IMG/VR virus record: IMGVR_UViG_2541047945_000011
Length of the DNA stretch: 48,989 nt
Strand: one strand, 5' to 3'
Origin: a virus
Lineage: Duplodnaviria; Heunggongvirae; Uroviricota; Caudoviricetes
This document shows positions 1 to 7,069 of this stretch, in pieces (the first letter of the stretch is position 1; every line of letters starts with the position of its first letter). The position numbers and the translations under genes were made by a program. The notes under the pieces were generated by a model. That model was not told where the DNA came from. It saw only the letters and a list, made by a program, of their open reading frames with translations, and made no database searches.

Positions 1-294
1 TCACCCACGATTAACCAACAGCCAGACCAGCAGACACGCCACCACCGGCACAGCAAAATCCATCAGGCTTGCCACATCCCACGCGCGCGGATCAAAACCG
101 CCCCACCACGGCATATTCATACGCTTGCCATGCACGAACATTTCAATCCAGCGATATTCTGCCTGGGTGTGTTCACGCGCAATGAAGAACGTACAACCGG
201 CTATCGCCCCGTAAGCCCAGTTTCCGGTAAAAAGACCAGCCAGTACCTGCACCGCTACGGCACAAAGCGCATGAAGTATCGACGTGATATCCAT
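1..294 (-). CDS. Hypothetical small membrane protein (97 aa), downstream of the tail-fibre genes
   Basis: Complete ORF with ATG at 294 and AAGGA-type RBS about 7 nt upstream; hydrophobic segments (ILHALCAVAVQVLAGLF, FAVPVVACLLVWLLV). Family not recognised. Confidence 0.45.
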   Translation of the reverse strand: MDITSILHALCAVAVQVLAGLFTGNWAYGAIAGCTFFIAREHTQAEYRWIEMFVHGKRMNMPWWGGFDPRAWDVASLMDFAVPVVACLLVWLLVNRG

Positions 295-303
295 CTGCTA
301 TCC

Positions 304-582
304 TTAAAACCACTCCCTGAGCGGGCGCTCTGGTGTAACCACCCACTCACGGAACACGGAATCATCAAATCCATCGTCAAGAAGACGGATATTAACAAAG
401 TACCCTTCGTTTCGCGTGTATTCTGGTTCTCCGTCATCAGGAACATCTGTCTCCCTGAACGTAAAACCAATCTCATCAACCAGAACGGCATTCTGCAGCT
501 CTTCGTCCTCTTCCCAGTTAAGTTTCCTGAGAAATGTCCTGAAATCTGCTTTATCACTGAAACGCAACGTGAAATCTCTCAC
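304..582 (-). CDS. Hypothetical acidic protein (92 aa), translationally coupled to the side tail fibre gene
   Basis: GTG start at 582 overlaps the stf stop (GTGA), with GGGGAGG RBS upstream. Sits where lambda has tfa but does not resemble Tfa. Confidence 0.4.
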   Translation of the reverse strand: MRDFTLRFSDKADFRTFLRKLNWEEDEELQNAVLVDEIGFTFRETDVPDDGEPEYTRNEGYFVNIRLLDDGFDDSVFREWVVTPERPLREWF

Positions 583-2645
583 TCCACAACCTCCCCAAGC
601 TGCGCATCTGTTAGCTCTTTATGCCAGAGACGAAAATTCCTCACATGCCCAAATAAATGGCGTAATCCTGCTGTAGTTTGTCCACCAATGCGAATGGTTG
701 CTGTACTCCGGATATATTCCCATTTGGTTTTAGTTTCGCTGCTTAACTTACCGTTACTGACTACACATGTGGACCGTTCGGACTTTACCCGCATACCAAT
801 AAGCATTTTTTCCAGCCCGGCATTTTCATTTATTCGTCGGTTTGAACCACCAATATCGCAATAAGGAAATCCGTCTGGCCCATCTGCCGAAGATCCGAAG
901 CCAAGAATAATAGCCGCTCCGGTTTGATGACCGCCGGTATCAAAAACACGTGGCGCTGCATTTGGCGTTTTATACCAGTTCTTATGTACCTCACAAAGAA
1001 CCGTAAAAGGAAGATTATAAAGATTATTATTAATTGGAACTGTAACTATATCGCTTGCGCGGGTAGCCGCCGTCGTTCCTGAGATAATAAAAGATGATGC
1101 ACACGAACCATCCTCAACCTGAGGGGTGGCCAGATAAATATAGTCTCCAGATACGGTTGCTCCGCCCTGATTAGGAGAATACTGTATCTGAGATCCTATT
1201 TTTAACTCATCATCAATTGCCAGGATTGTTGCCTCTGCAAAAATCCATCCGGTAGCTTCGTCCTTTCTGACTCTCGCTGTAATCCCTGAGGCCGCGCCAC
1301 CTGTCATATTAATTTCAAGCGTTTGTGTATCAATATATGCATCACCAAGAAAAGTTGTTGCACTACCGTCATATTTATCAAAGCGGATACGCAACCTTAC
1401 CTGTCGTTCTGTTTTAAAACGACATGAGGTTGTCACGTACTTGTTATCGCCTGAAACATCAACTGACTTTGTAGCAGCAATTGATGCCATATTAATGGCT
1501 GACGTTTGCCCAATCAGAGAATCGTTACAAACAAACTTTCCATAAGTAAAACCAAAACTATCAGTTCCAACCTCAGCGACATTCATATTTGCAGATTTAC
1601 CCCAAGAAGCTGGAGTTGCTGAATTCAACATGTAGTTGGTTCGCTGACCTTCAATCAATAAACCTTCTTTTTCAAATCGTGGCTCATTAATTTCCGCCGT
1701 TTTCAGTTCGCCAGATTTGTTGATATATGTTGCCGTTGATGCGCGACTGAAATTAACCTGTTTATCACTGGCAACCTGAACCACATTATCACCAATCTTC
1801 ACTTTTTTATAACCCGGAGAATAGCCCGTAATCATATCCAGCGAATCATTAAAGGGTATCCACACATCCGGCAGCGGCTGTAAAACATATCTGTACGGCT
1901 CTGCTGTCTGGTTTGCGTATTCTCTGGCAGCATCTTCACTTGCTTTTGCTGCCGTCTGGCTTGCTGCCGATGCTTTCGCCGAGTTCGCCGCCGCTGTTTC
2001 GCTCACCTTTGCGTTGGCTTCACTGTCTTTGGCATTCGTCTCACTGGTTTTCGCTGCCGTCTGGCTGGATTTTGCGTTTTTTTCGCTGGCCTTTGTGGCT
2101 GTCTCGCTATTTTTCGCGTTGGTTTCTGATTTTTTGGCTGCTGTCGCGGAGTTTGCCGATGCAGTCTGCGAGGCCGCTGCCGCCTGTGCGCTGTTAGCTG
2201 CATTCGTTTCTGAGGTTTTCGCCGCATTCTTCGATGAGGCTGCTGCCGTTTCGGATTTCTTTGCCGCCGCTGCACTCTGTGATGACGCTCCGGCATGACG
2301 TGCCACTTCATTCACCATCAGCTCAAAACGGCGCAGTGCCTCCGGACGGGCATCATCCTCCGTCATGGCACCGAGAAAATCATTCAGCGTACCTGGTCTG
2401 GAACCTTCATAGACGGTAATGGTTCCGGCATGTGAAGGCGGAAAACCTTCAACCAGCAGGGTGACGCTGTACTGGCCATACTCAACATCCATGCTATAAC
2501 GCCCGGCTTCATCCGGATTTTCAGAGGCCACCGTGTTCACCAGTACCGTGGTGCTGTTACGCTTTGCCTTCAGTTGAATAGTGCAGTTCTGTATTGGTTT
2601 TCCCGCACCATCTTTCAGCACACCTGAGATTTTTACTGCTGCCAT
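579..2645 (-). CDS. stf: Side tail fibre protein (Stf-like)
   Basis: N-terminus MAAVKISGVLKDGAGKPIQNCTIQLKAKRNSTTV...FPPSHAGTITVYE matches lambda Stf from memory; long Ala/Ser/Thr/Lys low-complexity repeat (KxSETNAxNS); distinct C-terminal domain ending HVRNFRLWHKELTDAQL. ATG at 2645 chosen over the upstream GTG. Confidence 0.85.
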   Translation of the reverse strand: MAAVKISGVLKDGAGKPIQNCTIQLKAKRNSTTVLVNTVASENPDEAGRYSMDVEYGQYSVTLLVEGFPPSHAGTITVYEGSRPGTLNDFLGAMTEDDARPEALRRFELMVNEVARHAGASSQSAAAAKKSETAAASSKNAAKTSETNAANSAQAAAASQTASANSATAAKKSETNAKNSETATKASEKNAKSSQTAAKTSETNAKDSEANAKVSETAAANSAKASAASQTAAKASEDAAREYANQTAEPYRYVLQPLPDVWIPFNDSLDMITGYSPGYKKVKIGDNVVQVASDKQVNFSRASTATYINKSGELKTAEINEPRFEKEGLLIEGQRTNYMLNSATPASWGKSANMNVAEVGTDSFGFTYGKFVCNDSLIGQTSAINMASIAATKSVDVSGDNKYVTTSCRFKTERQVRLRIRFDKYDGSATTFLGDAYIDTQTLEINMTGGAASGITARVRKDEATGWIFAEATILAIDDELKIGSQIQYSPNQGGATVSGDYIYLATPQVEDGSCASSFIISGTTAATRASDIVTVPINNNLYNLPFTVLCEVHKNWYKTPNAAPRVFDTGGHQTGAAIILGFGSSADGPDGFPYCDIGGSNRRINENAGLEKMLIGMRVKSERSTCVVSNGKLSSETKTKWEYIRSTATIRIGGQTTAGLRHLFGHVRNFRLWHKELTDAQLGEVVE

Positions 2646-2662
2646 ATCCACTCCACAAAAAA

Positions 2663-2682
2663 GCCCGCCTGAACCGGCGGGC
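2663..2682 (-). terminator. Putative intrinsic terminator between lom and stf
   Basis: Minus-strand stem GCCCGCC / GGCGGGC with 6-nt loop, followed by a T-run (TTTTTTGTGG) on the minus strand. Confidence 0.45.
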
Positions 2683-2709
2683 TGTCATAACACTGTGTTA
2701 CCTGGCTAA

Positions 2710-3309
2710 TCAGAACTTATAACCGACACCCACGATGAAACCGTCAGTGCGCCAGTCACCACTACCGGAGCCTTCATAAGCAATATCAATGGCCACGGAT
2801 TCGGTCGGGTTAAACTGCACGCCAGCCCCCCACGCCAGAGACGTGTTGCTGTGGCGACCGTCATCACTTCCGGTCAGCACATCGTGCGTTTTCCCCTTGT
2901 TGTCAGTTACGCGGAGATAATCCCCGGAGAAAGTCGACACACGGCTGTAAGCCACACCCACCATCGCATACGCGCTGAACCATTCATTCACGCGTACAGA
3001 CGGCCCCGCCATCACGCTGAACCAGCGGTTACGCACGGAATCTTCATGCCAGCGGGTATCGCTGTAGTGCGTTTTTTGCTCATCCTCAGCATTGGCATAA
3101 CTGAAGGACGTAATCAGCCCCAGCGCGTCCGTAAACTCATAACGGTATTTCACGTTAATCCCGTTCAGATTATCGCTGCCGGGAGCGTTCGTACGGGCAT
3201 GAAGATACCCCGCGCTCAGTGTGGACTGATGTTCAGACGCCCATGCAGGCGCACCGGATACGGACAGACAGATGGCTGCGGACAAAATGGCTGCACATAA
3301 TTTACGCAT
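2710..3309 (-). CDS. lom: Outer membrane protein Lom (Ail/Lom family)
   Basis: 199 aa with signal peptide MRKLCAAILSAAICLSVSGAPAWA and beta-barrel signature ending ...GFIVGVGYKF; lambda position directly after J. Confidence 0.9.
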   Translation of the reverse strand: MRKLCAAILSAAICLSVSGAPAWASEHQSTLSAGYLHARTNAPGSDNLNGINVKYRYEFTDALGLITSFSYANAEDEQKTHYSDTRWHEDSVRNRWFSVMAGPSVRVNEWFSAYAMVGVAYSRVSTFSGDYLRVTDNKGKTHDVLTGSDDGRHSNTSLAWGAGVQFNPTESVAIDIAYEGSGSGDWRTDGFIVGVGYKF

Positions 3310-3333: not shown

Positions 3334-3358
3334 AAAAAAGGCGCCATTTCTGGCGCCC
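3334..3358 (-). terminator. Putative intrinsic terminator downstream of J
   Basis: Minus-strand stem GGCGCC...GGCGCC followed by TTTTTTATTG. Confidence 0.45.
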
Positions 3359-3376: not shown

Positions 3377-6300
3377 TCAGCTAATCGTGATGCCTGCAGT
3401 GGCTTTCTTCATCACAACAACCAGCAAATCGCTGATACTTGCTGTGGGATACCAGCCATTTACCCACCATGCTGATACAGAAAACTCCAGCGTCATGTCG
3501 CCGCGACCAGCAGGCATATCAATAACACCACTGTAAACCAGCGTATTATCCATCGCGGTACGGTTATAAATTTCAGCACCGTTTTTCTTCACTATCAGGC
3601 GGCATGACGAATAAGTATCGCTGTTCTCCCGCTCATGTCTGGCACCGCTGAAAGCCACCGCCGGAATAACAATCTGCCGGTTAAACGGCTGATCGTCATA
3701 AACCCTGACGGTAATGGTTCCTGATGGCCAACGCTTCGGTGCACGGGAGTCACGAGGGAAAGCCTTACCCACTGTTTTAACGAGATCGCCTTCAATCTGG
3801 TTTGCAGACAGTTTCCCTCTGATGACACAGTTCTTGTTAATGGTGACATTATTGAGCGTGCCGGTATTCGCCGTGATGGCTCCACTGATATCCGCATTGC
3901 GGGCTGTCAGCCTGCCATCCGGCGTCAGGGAAAACGTCGGAGGATTGCCGGATGACGTGATGCTCACCGCAAACAGTCGCTTCAGGAACACGTCGTTCAT
4001 GAACAGCTGATTCCCCTGCGCCACAAACAGCGGCGTGGTGTTGCCGTTCTCCGGGGTAATCATCGCAATGCGATCGGCCTGCAGCAGAATGTTACTCAGG
4101 GTCTGACCATCAACATCCTCAATCCCCGCGCCAATCCCGGCCACATAGGGAATACCGTTTTTTGTTTTCTGCACCTTCAGCATATACATGGCATTCAGCT
4201 CATTGCGCGTGTCTGACTGAACCCGCTGGATTTGCTGTATGGTCACGGCCTGGTCACCCAGCTTTTTATCCGTGGTCGAGGTAATTTCACTCCCTTTTTT
4301 ATCCACGTACTGGCGGACCTGTGCTATCTGTCGGGCGTTTTCTGACTGCCCCTGGCTGACAGTCTGTGAGATTTCACTGCTCACCCGGTCCACTTTCTGG
4401 CTCACCTGCGCGATGGCCAGTGTCTGGTCCTCATTCTTTTTCGCAACCAGCTGCGTGAGGCTGTTTTCCGCCTTCCCGATTTTCCGGGTCACTTCTGCGA
4501 TATCCGTGTCCATCCGCTGACGGATATCTTCTTCCAGTTGCGTGACCTCCGTACGCAGCGCTGAAGCATCAATGCGCTCTTTCAGTGCCTGGCCCAGAAG
4601 CGTCTCATCTATCAGCCCCCGGAAAATTTCCAGATACCCTTCACCATCATTGCTGGGCTGCCCGCTGGCTTCCACAAAAGCAGATTTTCCCACCAGGTTG
4701 ACGCTTCGCACGTAAAACCAGAAATCCGTCCCCGGCTTAATCCGGCTCCCCTGGACAGTCCACTGACTGCCGGTCCCCAGATAACGGGCAGATTTTTCCA
4801 CCTGTGCTGTGTTCGTGATGCGTTTTTCTGAGAACCAGAATTCAAACTGCACCGTCGGGTCATACACCGCCAGCACCGGTACCGCCGTTATCTGAAAATA
4901 CCCCGGCGTCAGCTCAATGGTGGCGGGTTTTGCAGGCGCGTTAATCCGGAAGGTGGTGGTCGCAGGTTCGCCCTGCTGGCCGTAGCTGTTAATGGCCCGC
5001 ACCGTCAGGGTGTATTCCCCCAGCGGCAGACCACTGAAACGGTGCTCCGTGTCTGCGGTGATGGCGGTGCTCACCAGACGGCTGTCTTCTCCGCTTCCGC
5101 TGGTCAGACGCAGACTGAAGCGCACCCCCTTCACCACCCGCGGCGTGTCCCATTTCGCCTGTGCCAGATACTGACCGTCAGCTGCACTCACCTCCACCGT
5201 CAGGTGCTGCACTGCCGGTGGGATAACGCTGTTCAGGCTGCCTGACTGCGGCTCAAAGCTGGCCCCGTTATCCACAATGGCTTCTTTTTCCGGTACGTGC
5301 TGCACCGCCGTGATGGCAAAGGTGCCGTCCGTGTTTTCCCGGATGGAGACACAGCGAAACAGGCGACGACGCAGTGACGGCAGGGAGAGTCCCCACACCC
5401 CGTATGTCTCCACACCATCAGGCAGGGTACTGACCTGTATCCGGTCCGGCGCGGGGTGTGCGGTAATGGCCACGCTCGCCGGCTTACCGCTGCCGTTAAT
5501 CAGATTAACAGTGGCCGTGCCGGTCTCCGGCAGTGTCACCTCCCGGTCCAGCGTCAGGGTACGGCTGGCGGCATCGATGGACAGGACACGTCCGCCGGTC
5601 ATGGTCCCGGCATAGTCGTTATCACAGATTTCAATGATGTCACCGGGTGTGTGCCGCAGCCCCTGAGACCCGAGCGTGAAATCCACCGTCTGCGTTTCCA
5701 GCAGTTCGGTCTTTATCACCCACAGTCCGGCACGGTGGGCCTGACCGCGGCTGGTACAGCCGAACGCGTCCATCTTCAGCAGGTTGCGTCCGTAGCGCAG
5801 TATGGCTTCCGGGTCTTCCACCAGTTCCGTGGAGGTCTGCCAGCCGTTCTGCGGGTCGGTGTAATTCACCTCCACCGCCGTGTGCCGGTCCTTCAGGGCA
5901 CTGAAGCTGTAGCGGAACCCCACGCCGTTATCATCCACCACCACATCGCTGTTGGTGTACGGCCACACCACATCCGACGGACGGTCCTGAACGAACGTCA
6001 GCGTCTGGCCGTTCCATACCGGCATACAGCGCATCGCCGAGCAGAAATCACTGAGAACGTCCCACGCCTTACGCTGTTGTGCCAGGTACGCATTAAAGGT
6101 CATCCGCGGCTCGGTCCCCCCGAAACCATCCGGGACCGTCTGGTCGCAGTACTGCCCGATGGCATACAGCGCCCACTTGTCCACATCCGCCGCCCCCAGA
6201 CGTTTTCCCATGCCGTAGCGCGGGTGAGTCAGCATGTCCCACAGACACCAGGCCGGGTTGTTGCTGTATGCCGGTTTCAGGCTGCCGTCCCAGATACCAC

Positions 6301-7069
6301 TGTACGTGCGTTTTTCCGGGTCATAGTTTGACGGCACCTGGATGATGCGACCGCGGATATGGTAGTTCACCGTCATCTGCTGGCCGCCGAACTGCTCCGC
6401 ATCCACCTGCAGCCCCACAATGGCCGTGTTCGGGTAGCACTGTTTCACATCGATGATTTCGGTGTATGACGACCACAGCGTCTTATTCTGCAGCTGGTCC
6501 GTGGTGCTGTCCGCCGTCTCCCTGACCATCCGGATGTTAAAGGGCCGGGGAGGCAGATTATCCAGAATCACCGAGGCCAGGAACTGTGAGGTGGTCTTGC
6601 CGTTAATGGTGACGTCCTTTTCTGTCACCCAGTTACCGTTACGCTGTAACTGAATCAGCAGGCGGACGGATGCCGGGTTACGGTCACCCTTTGAGGTGGT
6701 CTCCACCAGTGACTGCACCCCGAAGGTAACCCGCAGGCGGTCAATGTTCGCGGACGTAATGGTGCGCGTCACCGGTTTTGCCTTCGTCACTTCCACGCCC
6801 AGTCCGGTTTCAGCTCCGGAGGACTCAAAGCCTTCCGGTGGTGTCTGCTCCTGCTCCCCGGCACGCCAGACCGCGGTCACACCGTGTATCACGGGATTAC
6901 CGTCCGTGTCCGTCAGCGGGGTTTTGTTCACCAGGATACTCTGCAGTCCCTTCACCGGGCCTTCTATCGGTCCCTCACCAATCGCATCAATCACACTCAT
7001 CATCTGCGTGGATTTGAGATTATCCTTCGCCTCACGAGGCGTGTGTGCCTTACCGCCACCTTTTCCCAT
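3377..7069 (-). CDS. J: Tail tip / host specificity protein J
   Basis: 1230-aa ORF starting [39 protein letters not shown]..., matching lambda J; position after I. Confidence 0.95.

What the first reader, a model, noticed from the sequence alone, without database searches (positions are those of the whole stretch)
1..582. Two small unknown genes replace the tail fibre assembly gene downstream of stf
Lambda has tfa after stf. Here a 92-aa acidic protein is translationally coupled to stf (GTGA overlap, strong RBS) and is followed by a 97-aa multi-TM membrane protein. Neither resembles Tfa. The pair could be a fibre chaperone plus a lysogenic-conversion or exclusion membrane protein.
Basis: partly seen in the sequence, partly recalled or inferred. 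Interest (0 to 1): 0.35.

Follow-up and report, generated by a model that had tools for sequence, protein, structure and literature searches.

The report
Fibre-tip partner gene plus membrane-protein gene
At the end of this E. coli prophage's tail-fibre operon, the usual fibre-assembly gene is replaced by a small acidic protein that always travels with this type of fibre tip, plus a separate, widely spread small membrane protein. Both are very common, and neither has been studied.

Summary
On the minus strand, stf (579-2651) ends in a GTGA overlap with a 92-aa acidic ORF (304-582, GGGGAGG Shine-Dalgarno). Nine nt later comes a 97-aa three-helix membrane ORF (1-294).

Neither protein matches Pfam, NCBIfam, PADLOC or PDB. 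Both fall in function-unknown PHROGs (1361 and 1443).

The two genes are separate modules.
- **ORF92** occurs in 197 phage records, temperate and virulent (lambdoid, T1-like, T5-like, rV5-like, Dhillonvirus, Nonagvirus). In all eleven loci inspected it abuts or overlaps the stop of a fibre gene carrying the same C-terminal module. In E. coli prophages the fibre tip plus ORF92 swap as one cassette. I read ORF92 as a fibre-specific accessory protein, a trans chaperone or a distal adaptor. It is unrelated to Tfa.
- **ORF97** belongs to a strongly conserved proteobacterial family. In temperate sipho-, myo- and podoviruses it sits at the far end of the receptor-binding-protein genes. It also occurs as a stand-alone chromosomal gene. 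Its function is unresolved.

A lambda-type tfa 3' stub lies 28 nt beyond the window in an identical genome, so "replacement" is literal. The region is in 35% of complete E. coli genomes. This is a common, uncharacterised module of modest interest.

The parts
579..2651 (-). stf, side tail fibre, 690 aa. It has a lambda-type N-terminus, a domain like the GTA head-spike fibre (about aa 300-547), and a conserved C-terminal roughly 140-aa tip ending RIGGQT..G.RHLFGH.RNFRLWHKELTD.
   Evidence: PF08400 at E 7e-67. NF048003 GTA_spike_fiber scores 55 bits against a cutoff of 36. PDB 6tb9 matches aa 301-547 at E 6e-8. phrog_1419.
582..1077 (-). Variable 3' part of stf (about the last 165 codons). Together with ORF92 it forms the exchangeable cassette.
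   Evidence: DNA identity to phage 21 is 23-68% here. It is 83-95% at 1078-1557 and 95-100% across most of ORF97. The tip allele and the ORF92 allele agree in 73 of the 76 IMG/VR loci where both could be read.
590..596 (-). Shine-Dalgarno GGGGAGG for ORF92, lying inside the end of stf.
   Evidence: Read directly from the sequence. It is 7 nt upstream of the GTG.
304..582 (-). ORF92: a 92-aa acidic alpha+beta protein (phrog_1361). Proposed fibre-specific accessory protein, either a trans chaperone or a distal adaptor.
   Evidence: GTGA overlap with stf. AlphaFold2 pLDDT 88.6. 197 phage records hold a homologue, and in all eleven loci inspected it abuts or overlaps a fibre gene. The tip domain occurs in a near-identical set of 201 records.
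301..305 (-). Shine-Dalgarno AAGGA for ORF97, overlapping the ORF92 stop codon.
   Evidence: Read directly from the sequence. It is 6 nt upstream of the ATG.
1..294 (-). ORF97: a 97-aa three-helix inner-membrane protein (phrog_1443). Its conserved core is AREHTQAEYRWI..FG.GKR.NMPWWGGFD. It is the last gene of the late operon and of the prophage.
   Evidence: AlphaFold2 pLDDT 92.9. More than 564 clusters at 90% identity. 70 genome loci across alpha-, beta-, gamma- and deltaproteobacteria. dN/dS is 0.17-0.20.
2662..2683 (-). Terminator-like hairpin between lom and stf. It bounds the stf-ORF92-ORF97 unit on its upstream side.
   Evidence: 8-bp stem with 7 G-C pairs followed by a T-run. Phage 21 has an annotated terminator just upstream of its stf; it carries no lom, so there the site lies between J and stf.

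Best explanation
The 582 bases hold two independent modules at the 3' end of the late tail-fibre transcription unit.

**Module 1: the fibre tip and ORF92.** The last ~165 codons of stf and ORF92 form a host-range cassette. ORF92 is a small acidic cytoplasmic alpha+beta protein, translationally coupled to the fibre. It acts on the conserved C-terminal domain of this fibre type. Most likely it is a trans-acting folding or trimerisation chaperone that does the job Tfa does for lambda Stf. It may also stay bound at the tip or dock a second distal fibre protein. The cassette entered a lambda-like tail-fibre region by recombination and left a tfa 3' stub.

**Module 2: ORF97.** This is a separately inherited, strongly conserved three-helix inner-membrane protein. 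Temperate phages of three morphotypes carry it at the far end of their receptor-binding-protein genes. Here it is most likely made from the late transcript together with the fibre. I infer that it acts at the cell envelope, in exclusion, receptor masking or lysis and release. Its biochemical activity is unknown.

**Shown:** gene structure, coupling, distribution, synteny, cassette boundaries, absence of homology to known families.

**Inferred:** chaperone or adaptor activity, co-transcription, any envelope role.
For: **ORF92**
- tblastn finds ORF92 in 197 phage records and the Stf C-terminal 140 aa in 201. The breakdown by organism name is almost identical: Escherichia 161 and 161, Salmonella 15 and 16, Campylobacter 8 and 8, Dhillonvirus 3 and 3.
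- In eleven loci from lambdoid, Drexlerviridae, Tequintavirus, Vequintavirus, Dhillonvirus and Nonagvirus phages, the homologue abuts or overlaps the stop of a fibre gene in ten. In the eleventh (HMD-P3) it follows 45 nt later. These fibres share homologous last ~400 aa, while their N-termini are unrelated between families.
- ORF92 identity tracks fibre C-terminal identity: Spearman rho 0.55 for the last 140 aa and 0.70 for the region before it. It does not track the N-terminus: rho 0.18, not significant.
- Against phage 21, DNA identity falls from 95-100% in ORF97 to 53-68% across ORF92 and 23-68% across the stf tip. It returns to 83-95% further up stf.
- In the 76 IMG/VR loci where both could be read, the ORF92 allele matches the tip allele in 73. 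The mid-fibre region and ORF97 alleles vary freely.
- Stf has no Peptidase_S74 self-chaperone domain.
- The AlphaFold2 model is confident (pLDDT 88.6) and resembles only uncharacterised phage proteins in BFVD, with TM-scores of 0.62-0.68 for the three best matches.

**ORF97**
- AlphaFold2 pLDDT 92.9, three helices.
- The gene follows the receptor-binding-protein genes in:
  - lambdoid phages;
  - HP1-like myovirus prophages of Leclercia and Aeromonas, adjacent to or overlapping the fibre gene and lying mid tail operon;
  - phiHAP-1, with a 4-nt overlap with tfa;
  - GDSL-esterase tailspike prophages;
  - P22-like phages, between tailspike and int;
  - a Comamonas prophage, after gpJ.
- No sigma-70-like promoter lies between stf and ORF97.

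**Replacement**
- The tfa stub beyond the window.
Against: **ORF92**
- There is no direct evidence of a physical interaction. Adjacency alone would produce much of the observed co-variation.
- Two IMG/VR loci (L168, L169) pair a phage-21-type ORF92 (96% and 91% identity) with a tip only 35-41% identical. Allele-level specificity is therefore not strict.
- In many phages ORF92 is followed by a second fibre protein with a shared N-terminal motif, TVIPxDITxLK. An adaptor role is as possible as a chaperone role.
- Foldseek finds no solved chaperone with this fold.

**ORF97**
- Relatives stand alone beside housekeeping genes: pirin in four Aeromonas species, and ligA, PNPase and RNase PH among the other loci. 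A phage-specific role is not required.
- Membrane topology is unresolved. K+R counts favour a cytoplasmic central loop, but Arg-rich C-tails in distant relatives favour the opposite.
- The promoter scan is a weak test.
Confidence: 0.6

Rival explanations
1. ORF92 is a structural adaptor rather than a folding chaperone. It stays on the fibre and links the conserved C-terminal domain of the first fibre protein to a second, distal fibre protein, giving a branched or extended fibre. In this prophage the second protein has been lost and ORF92 is a leftover or caps the tip.
For: In T5-like JLBYU40 and HMD-P3, Nonagvirus BRET, lambdoid IdasGreatGrand and PhiR49_1, and Drexlerviridae JLBYU19, ORF92 is followed about 10 nt later by a further fibre protein. 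Five of these six proteins share the N-terminal motif TVIPxDITxLK, even though they come from four unrelated phage groups. A shared N-terminus suggests a common docking partner.
Against: ORF92 is retained and under purifying selection where no second fibre gene exists: this window, phage 21, Dhillonvirus rolling and rV5-like JLBYU08. HMD-P3's second protein lacks the motif. No virion proteomics data were found.
Confidence: 0.25
2. ORF97 is lysogenic-conversion or superinfection-exclusion cargo (a moron). It is expressed in the lysogen and alters the envelope or blocks DNA entry of other phages.
For: It occupies classic cargo slots. In P22-like Gally and 611R6 it lies between tailspike and integrase, in 611R6 next to an O-acetylase. 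In phiHAP-1 it lies between tfa and the tail sheath gene, which from my own knowledge is the P2 Z/fun position. Here it is the last gene before the prophage end. It is nearly confined to temperate phages: 75 records, mostly lambdoid. It is present in 35% of complete E. coli genomes at a median of two copies.
Against: There is no promoter-like site in front of it. The spacer is only 9 nt, and terminator-like hairpins lie upstream of stf. In several phages it overlaps the preceding late gene by 4 nt. It has no hit in PADLOC or in any named exclusion PHROG. The sequence stays at 53-60% identity in Comamonas, Aeromonas and Leclercia copies, although the Stf, S74 fibres and GDSL tailspikes it follows have unrelated domains. 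It therefore cannot be matched to one receptor.
Confidence: 0.3
3. ORF97 is a holin-like or lysis-accessory membrane protein that acts late to tune lysis or release.
For: Its size and three helices fit a class I holin, a comparison I make from memory. Relatives adjoin lysis genes in three lineages.
- In E. coli L011 it lies just before Phage_holin_8, Phage_holin_3_7, a GH19 endolysin and DUF2514.
- In Comamonas L003 it overlaps by 4 nt the first of two multi-TM ORFs, which precede a phrog_3108 protein carrying the motif LQESR...GFWQFE. I read that motif as transglycosylase-like, but that reading is untested.
- In Aeromonas phage 62AhydR11PP it follows a phrog_3108 protein and a Gly-zipper TM protein.
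Against: This prophage already has a complete lysis cassette 24 kb away: an S21-like holin, a SAR-type endolysin, and Rz/Rz1. No Pfam holin family is hit even at E <= 1. From my own knowledge, the 36-residue near-invariant central loop and the stand-alone chromosomal copies are unlike holins. The adjacency to lysis genes could be a by-product of the gene sitting after the receptor-binding-protein gene.
Confidence: 0.15
4. ORF97 has no phage-specific role. It is a host-type small membrane protein picked up as a passenger. Its high nucleotide conservation in E. coli prophages reflects its use as a homologous flank for swapping fibre cassettes.
For: It is 95-100% identical in DNA between this window and phage 21, right up to the junction with the divergent cassette. 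It follows ORF92 of either allele, a 234-aa short fibre, or a 346-aa S74 fibre. Chromosomal copies exist outside phages.
Against: dN/dS is about 0.2 even between diverged copies. The gene is retained in the same relative position in phages of three morphotypes and several bacterial classes. A pure passenger would not be expected to behave this way.
Confidence: 0.15

Closest known systems
Lambda Tfa / P2 G / Mu U tail fibre assembly chaperones (Pfam Caudo_TAP)
   Same: A small gene directly downstream of, and co-oriented with, the fibre gene. It is exchanged together with the fibre's C-terminal receptor-binding part. It occupies the place where lambda has tfa.
   Different: No sequence or profile similarity. 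The protein is half the size (92 aa against 194 aa) and has a different predicted fold. No solved chaperone appears in Foldseek. It partners a different fibre tip, made of a GTA-spike-like domain plus a C-terminal domain unassigned to any Pfam family.
T4 gp38-type factors (from my own knowledge: chaperone in T4, tip adhesin in T2- and S16-like phages)
   Same: Encoded right after the distal fibre gene. It may either only assist folding or stay at the tip. It is part of a host-range cassette.
   Different: No hit to gp38 families in PHROGs or Pfam. Virion association of ORF92 is unknown.
Rhodobacter capsulatus GTA head spike fibre Rcc01080 (PDB 6tb9)
   Same: Stf residues 301-547 are homologous: phmmer E 6e-8 and NF048003 above its cutoff.
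   Different: In the GTA the domain sits on capsid spikes. Here it is the distal part of a lambda-type side tail fibre, followed by a further ~140-aa domain and a dedicated small partner gene.
Phage cargo membrane proteins next to receptor-binding-protein genes (P2 Z/fun, P22 gtrABC, Sf6 oac, phi80/N15 cor, HK97 gp15) - recalled from memory
   Same: ORF97 is a small membrane protein in the same genomic slots of temperate phages.
   Different: No homology to any of them. It has no promoter of its own here and is often translationally coupled to a late gene. It is far more conserved across host classes than receptor-specific exclusion proteins. Stand-alone chromosomal relatives exist.
Class I holins (for example lambda S)
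   Same: About 100 aa with three helices. Some relatives adjoin holin and endolysin genes.
   Different: No holin family match. It has a long invariant central loop. The protein in this window has only a 3-residue C-tail (NRG). The phage has its own S21-like holin.

Membership tests
Tfa / Caudo_TAP tail fibre assembly chaperones | Sequence or profile homology to Tfa (PF02413 or lambda Tfa) | tested here: not met
   No such Pfam hit at E <= 1. hhalign of the ORF92 family against lambda Tfa gives probability 0.07%.
Tfa / Caudo_TAP tail fibre assembly chaperones | Gene directly downstream of the fibre gene, on the same strand | tested here: met
   GTGA overlap with the stf stop. In ten of the eleven phage loci inspected the gene abuts or overlaps the fibre stop; in HMD-P3 it follows 45 nt later.
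Tfa / Caudo_TAP tail fibre assembly chaperones | Co-inheritance with the fibre's C-terminal domain | tested here: met
   197 against 201 phage records with matching taxon breakdown. rho 0.55-0.70 with the C-terminus and 0.18 with the N-terminus. Cassette boundaries. 73 of 76 loci concordant; of the three exceptions I inspected L168, where the breakpoint falls inside the last ~40 codons of the fibre gene.
Tfa / Caudo_TAP tail fibre assembly chaperones | Required for folding or trimerisation of the fibre tip, and binds it | not testable with these tools
   Needs co-expression or pull-down experiments, or a multimer structure prediction.
Intramolecular chaperone fibres (Peptidase_S74) | C-terminal S74 domain in the fibre itself | tested here: not met
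   No PF13884 hit in Stf. A trans factor is therefore plausible.
GTA head-spike-fibre domain proteins (NF048003) | Score above the NCBIfam cutoff and homology to 6tb9 | tested here: met
   55 bits against a cutoff of 36, aa 332-532. 6tb9_F3 at E 6e-8, aa 301-547. This applies to Stf, not to the two small ORFs.
Morons / lysogenic conversion genes | Own promoter and terminator, expressed from the prophage | tested here: not met
   No sigma-70-like site on the minus strand between stf and ORF97. The spacer is 9 nt. No terminator-like site was found after ORF97 in the identical genome. Consensus scans are weak evidence, and expression was not measured.
Morons / lysogenic conversion genes | Location in a known cargo slot of temperate phages | tested here: met
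   Last gene before the prophage end. Between tailspike and int in P22-like phages. Between tfa and the sheath gene in phiHAP-1.
Known superinfection-exclusion / defence proteins | Homology to a described exclusion or defence family | tested here: not met
   PADLOC gives 0 hits. The only PHROG hits are to function-unknown families. Pfam and NCBIfam give nothing.
Holins | Match to a holin family and adjacency to the endolysin gene | tested here: not met
   No holin family at E <= 1. The window's lysis cassette is at 24.5-27.2 kb. Adjacency to lysis genes is seen only for distant relatives.

The most novel reading that the evidence does not exclude
ORF97 represents an unrecognised, near-invariant three-helix inner-membrane protein family with the core motif TQAEYRWI...NMPWWGGFD. 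It is found from Alphaproteobacteria to Desulfovibrio. Temperate sipho-, myo- and podoviruses have repeatedly placed it directly behind their receptor-binding-protein genes for one shared purpose. One possibility is late control of an envelope process, so that progeny are not trapped or lysis is timed. In parallel, ORF92 would found a new family of trans chaperones or adaptors for GTA-spike-type fibre tips, shared by at least six coliphage groups.
Probability: 0.25. Interest if true: 0.6.

Novelty: new variant of a known kind. Interest (0 to 1): 0.38.

Why it matters
Fibre tips of this type are the variable host-range module in lambdoid, T1-like, T5-like, rV5-like, Dhillonvirus and Nonagvirus coliphages.

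If ORF92 is the obligatory partner, anyone grafting these tips onto lambda or other delivery particles must carry ORF92 along. The natural cassette boundaries found here, about 165 codons into stf and the ORF92/ORF97 junction, show where to cut.

ORF97 is one of the most common unannotated prophage genes in E. coli. It is in 35% of complete genomes, often in several copies. It belongs to a conserved bacterial membrane-protein family that has no Pfam or NCBIfam model. Finding its activity would fill a gap in both prophage biology and envelope biology.

Neither point overturns current understanding.

Tried and rejected
- **Family searches.** Pfam, NCBIfam, PADLOC and PDB sequence searches of both small proteins found nothing usable. 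Pfam scans of ten divergent ORF97 relatives also found nothing.
- **Fold searches.** Foldseek of the ORF97 model against PDB gave no match at E < 3. Foldseek of the ORF92 model against PDB gave only generic ferredoxin-like hits (ribosomal S10, PII, NusG) at TM-score < 0.45, which I reject as meaningless. BFVD returned only uncharacterised phage proteins.
- **Spurious hits.** Long repeat proteins hit by the ORF92 profile (the two inspected, P0166 and P0187) are tandem-repeat or PKD-like chance matches.
- **Literature.** Searches for the families, the SEED identifiers, 'ybl63', and side- or lateral-fibre chaperones found no description of either protein. I checked the two BASEL papers, the DT57C paper and the lambda-STF engineering paper.
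- **Failed scan.** A viral-contig scan with the diverse ORF92 alignment failed for lack of a conserved stretch. I repeated it with the close alignment.
- **Topology.** The positive-inside rule did not resolve the membrane topology of ORF97.
- **Primary holin.** I rejected the idea that ORF97 is the phage's primary holin, because the window has its own lysis cassette.

Full report
**1. What is there**

The window is a lambdoid prophage read backwards. The late genes run on the minus strand, and an integrase-sized ORF (341 aa, not scanned) lies near the far end at 46931-47956 on the plus strand. The finding covers the last genes of the late operon.

- J is at 3377-7069 and lom at 2710-3309.
- stf is at 579-2651 (690 aa).
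- A 92-aa ORF is at 304-582 and a 97-aa ORF at 1-294. All are on the minus strand.

- stf ends ...GTT GTG GAG TGA.
- ORF92 starts at the GTG that shares three bases with that TGA, which is the GTGA overlap.
- GGGGAGG lies 7 nt upstream of the start.
- ORF92 ends in TAA. AAGGA overlaps that stop.
- ORF97 starts 9 nt after the stop.

ORF92 is acidic, with pI 4.26. ORF97 has two strongly hydrophobic segments and one weaker one. AlphaFold2 models it as three helices at pLDDT 92.9. The ORF97 stop codon is the first three bases of the window.

**2. They are real genes, common, and unnamed**

- Both match function-unknown PHROGs over their full length: phrog_1361 at E 2e-40 and phrog_1443 at E 1e-56.
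- Neither matches Pfam, NCBIfam, PADLOC or any PDB sequence.
- The same pair follows stf in phage 21, where it is annotated 'hypothetical protein' and 'putative membrane protein'. It also follows stf in PhiR40_1; megablast matches ev243, 2G7b and many other records over the region.
- The 600-bp region matches 1924 of 5426 complete E. coli genomes, with a median of two places per genome. RefSeq calls both genes hypothetical.
- The exact proteins are on more than 300 public contigs each.
- Both are under purifying selection.

**3. The two genes are separate modules**

- A word-indexed search found only 25 clusters for ORF92 but more than 564 for ORF97. The ORF92 clusters that carry a source name are all E. 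coli.
- An exhaustive profile search found 54 representative clusters for ORF92.
- Against the phage collection, ORF92 is in 197 records. These include virulent Drexlerviridae, Tequintavirus, Vequintavirus, Dhillonvirus and Nonagvirus.
- ORF97 is in 75 records. Most are temperate lambdoids, with some P22-like phages, Aeromonas phages and Halomonas phiHAP-1.
- In all six virulent-phage loci inspected, ORF97 does not follow ORF92.

**4. ORF92 belongs to the fibre tip**

In all eleven loci inspected, the ORF92 homologue directly follows a fibre gene. In ten it abuts or overlaps the fibre stop, and in HMD-P3 it starts 45 nt later. These fibres share homologous last ~400 residues. That region is a domain related to the RcGTA head-spike fibre (PDB 6tb9, NF048003), followed by a ~140-residue domain. 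In most of them that domain ends RIGGQT..G.RHLFGH.RNFRIWHK.LTD; HMD-P3 and BRET have more diverged endings. Their N-termini are unrelated between phage families.

Several lines tie ORF92 to the tip.
- The tip domain alone is found in 201 phage records, with nearly the same taxon breakdown as ORF92's 197.
- ORF92 identity correlates with fibre C-terminal identity (rho 0.55 and 0.70) and not with the N-terminus (rho 0.18, not significant).
- Against phage 21, the DNA is 95-100% identical in ORF97. It falls to 53-68% through ORF92 and 23-68% through the last ~165 codons of stf, then returns to 83-95%.
- So the tip plus ORF92 form one divergent cassette between conserved flanks.
- Among the 76 IMG/VR loci where both could be read, the ORF92 allele and the tip allele agree in 73. 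The mid-fibre region and the ORF97 alleles vary independently.
- I inspected L168, one of the exceptions. Its recombination point falls inside the last ~40 codons of stf. Specificity for the variable part of the tip is therefore not absolute.

Stf has no S74 self-chaperone domain. ORF92 has no similarity to lambda Tfa. Its model (pLDDT 88.6) is a small alpha+beta fold with no solved relative, and it resembles only uncharacterised phage proteins.

In an E. coli genome identical over the 600-bp query, a 37-aa stub of lambda-type tfa lies 28 nt past ORF97. This shows that the cassette replaced the stf end and tfa by recombination.

**5. Chaperone or adaptor**

In several phages ORF92 is followed by a second fibre protein. 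Five of the six examined share the N-terminal motif TVIPxDITxLK, although they come from four unrelated phage groups. That hints at a common docking site, so ORF92 could be a connector.

ORF92 is also kept where no second fibre exists: here, in phage 21, in Dhillonvirus rolling and in an rV5-like phage. For that reason I favour a role directed at the first fibre. That role is a trans chaperone, which may remain bound. I keep the adaptor reading as the main rival.

**6. ORF97**

The family has a near-invariant core, RE.TQAEYRWI..FG.G.R.NMPWWGGFD. It runs through gamma-, beta-, alpha- and deltaproteobacteria.

In phages it sits at the far end of the receptor-binding-protein genes, whatever the fibre type.
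- After ORF92, a 234-aa short fibre or a 346-aa S74 fibre in Escherichia.
- After an S74 fibre, mid tail operon, in HP1-like prophages of Leclercia and Aeromonas, adjacent or with a 4-nt overlap.
- After tfa in phiHAP-1, with a 4-nt overlap.
- After GDSL-esterase tailspikes.
- Between tailspike and int in P22-like phages.
- After gpJ in Comamonas.

In three lineages it also touches lysis genes.

It also stands alone beside housekeeping genes. The neighbour is pirin in four Aeromonas species, and ligA, PNPase and RNase PH among the other loci.

In this window no promoter-like site precedes it, and terminator-like hairpins lie upstream of stf. Late co-expression with the fibre is therefore the simplest reading. 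The window has its own S21-like holin, SAR-type endolysin and Rz/Rz1, so ORF97 is not the main holin. Its membrane topology could not be settled.

I conclude that ORF97 is a mobile, conserved inner-membrane protein placed at the fibre-locus border. It probably acts at the envelope. I cannot say whether in exclusion, receptor masking, or lysis and release.

**7. Verdict**

- The chaperone guess for ORF92 is well supported by association but unproven.
- The conversion or exclusion guess for ORF97 is only positional.
- The genes are not a functional pair.
- This is a very common, already-catalogued but uncharacterised module. At most it is a non-homologous variant of the known 'fibre gene plus partner gene' theme, joined to an orphan membrane-protein family. 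Interest is modest.

Noticed in passing
Outside the window: L088 3859-3972 (E. coli CP091756), 28 nt beyond window base 1: A 37-aa 3' stub of lambda-type tfa, 85% identical to Tfa residues 158-191. It marks the recombination scar left when the stf-tip/ORF92/ORF97 block replaced the stf end and tfa.
   Followed up: yes
window 1078-1750 (stf aa ~300-547): The middle of Stf is homologous to the head-spike fibre of the Rhodobacter gene transfer agent (PDB 6tb9; NF048003). A capsid-decoration domain is reused in a tail fibre.
   Followed up: partly
L006 5289-7058, L017 5278-7017, L014 and L015 5292-5996, L005 2352-2612: The second fibre proteins encoded just after ORF92 homologues share the N-terminal motif TVIPxDITxLK. 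They come from T5-like, Nonagvirus, lambdoid and T1-like phages. This is possibly a common docking peptide for branched fibres.
   Followed up: partly
L003 8970-9521 and L173 2499-2996: Unknown-function phrog_3108 proteins near ORF97 homologues carry LQESR...GFWQFE. By eye this looks like a lytic-transglycosylase motif, suggesting unannotated endolysins. Pfam gives no hit.
   Followed up: partly
L004, L022, L024, L025, L030 (Aeromonas chromosomes): A stand-alone ORF97-family gene, 53-54% identical. In L004 the called genes place it between pirin and a RIO1-type kinase, with no phage genes nearby. The ORF upstream is 292-330 aa in L022, L024 and L025, and Pfam confirmed Pirin for two such loci.
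   Followed up: partly
window 26005-26898 (-): A 297-aa ORF is inserted between the S21-like holin (26900-27169) and the SAR-type endolysin (25435-25968). I did not examine it.
   Followed up: no
window 3339-3358 and 2662-2683 (-): Terminator-like hairpins flank lom on both sides, which fits lom being a self-contained insert in the late operon.
   Followed up: no
L168 and L169 (IMG/VR): A phage-21-type ORF92 (96% and 91% identity) is paired with a third fibre-tip type only 35-41% identical. In L168 the breakpoint lies within the last ~40 codons of stf.
   Followed up: partly
phage records labelled Campylobacter (C14, C15) and Listeria: The records carrying this coliphage fibre tip and ORF92 that I saw (C14, 87.5 kb; C15, 135 kb) have no annotation, and C15 matches like an rV5-type phage. 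The host labels are probably wrong or the records contaminated.
   Followed up: no
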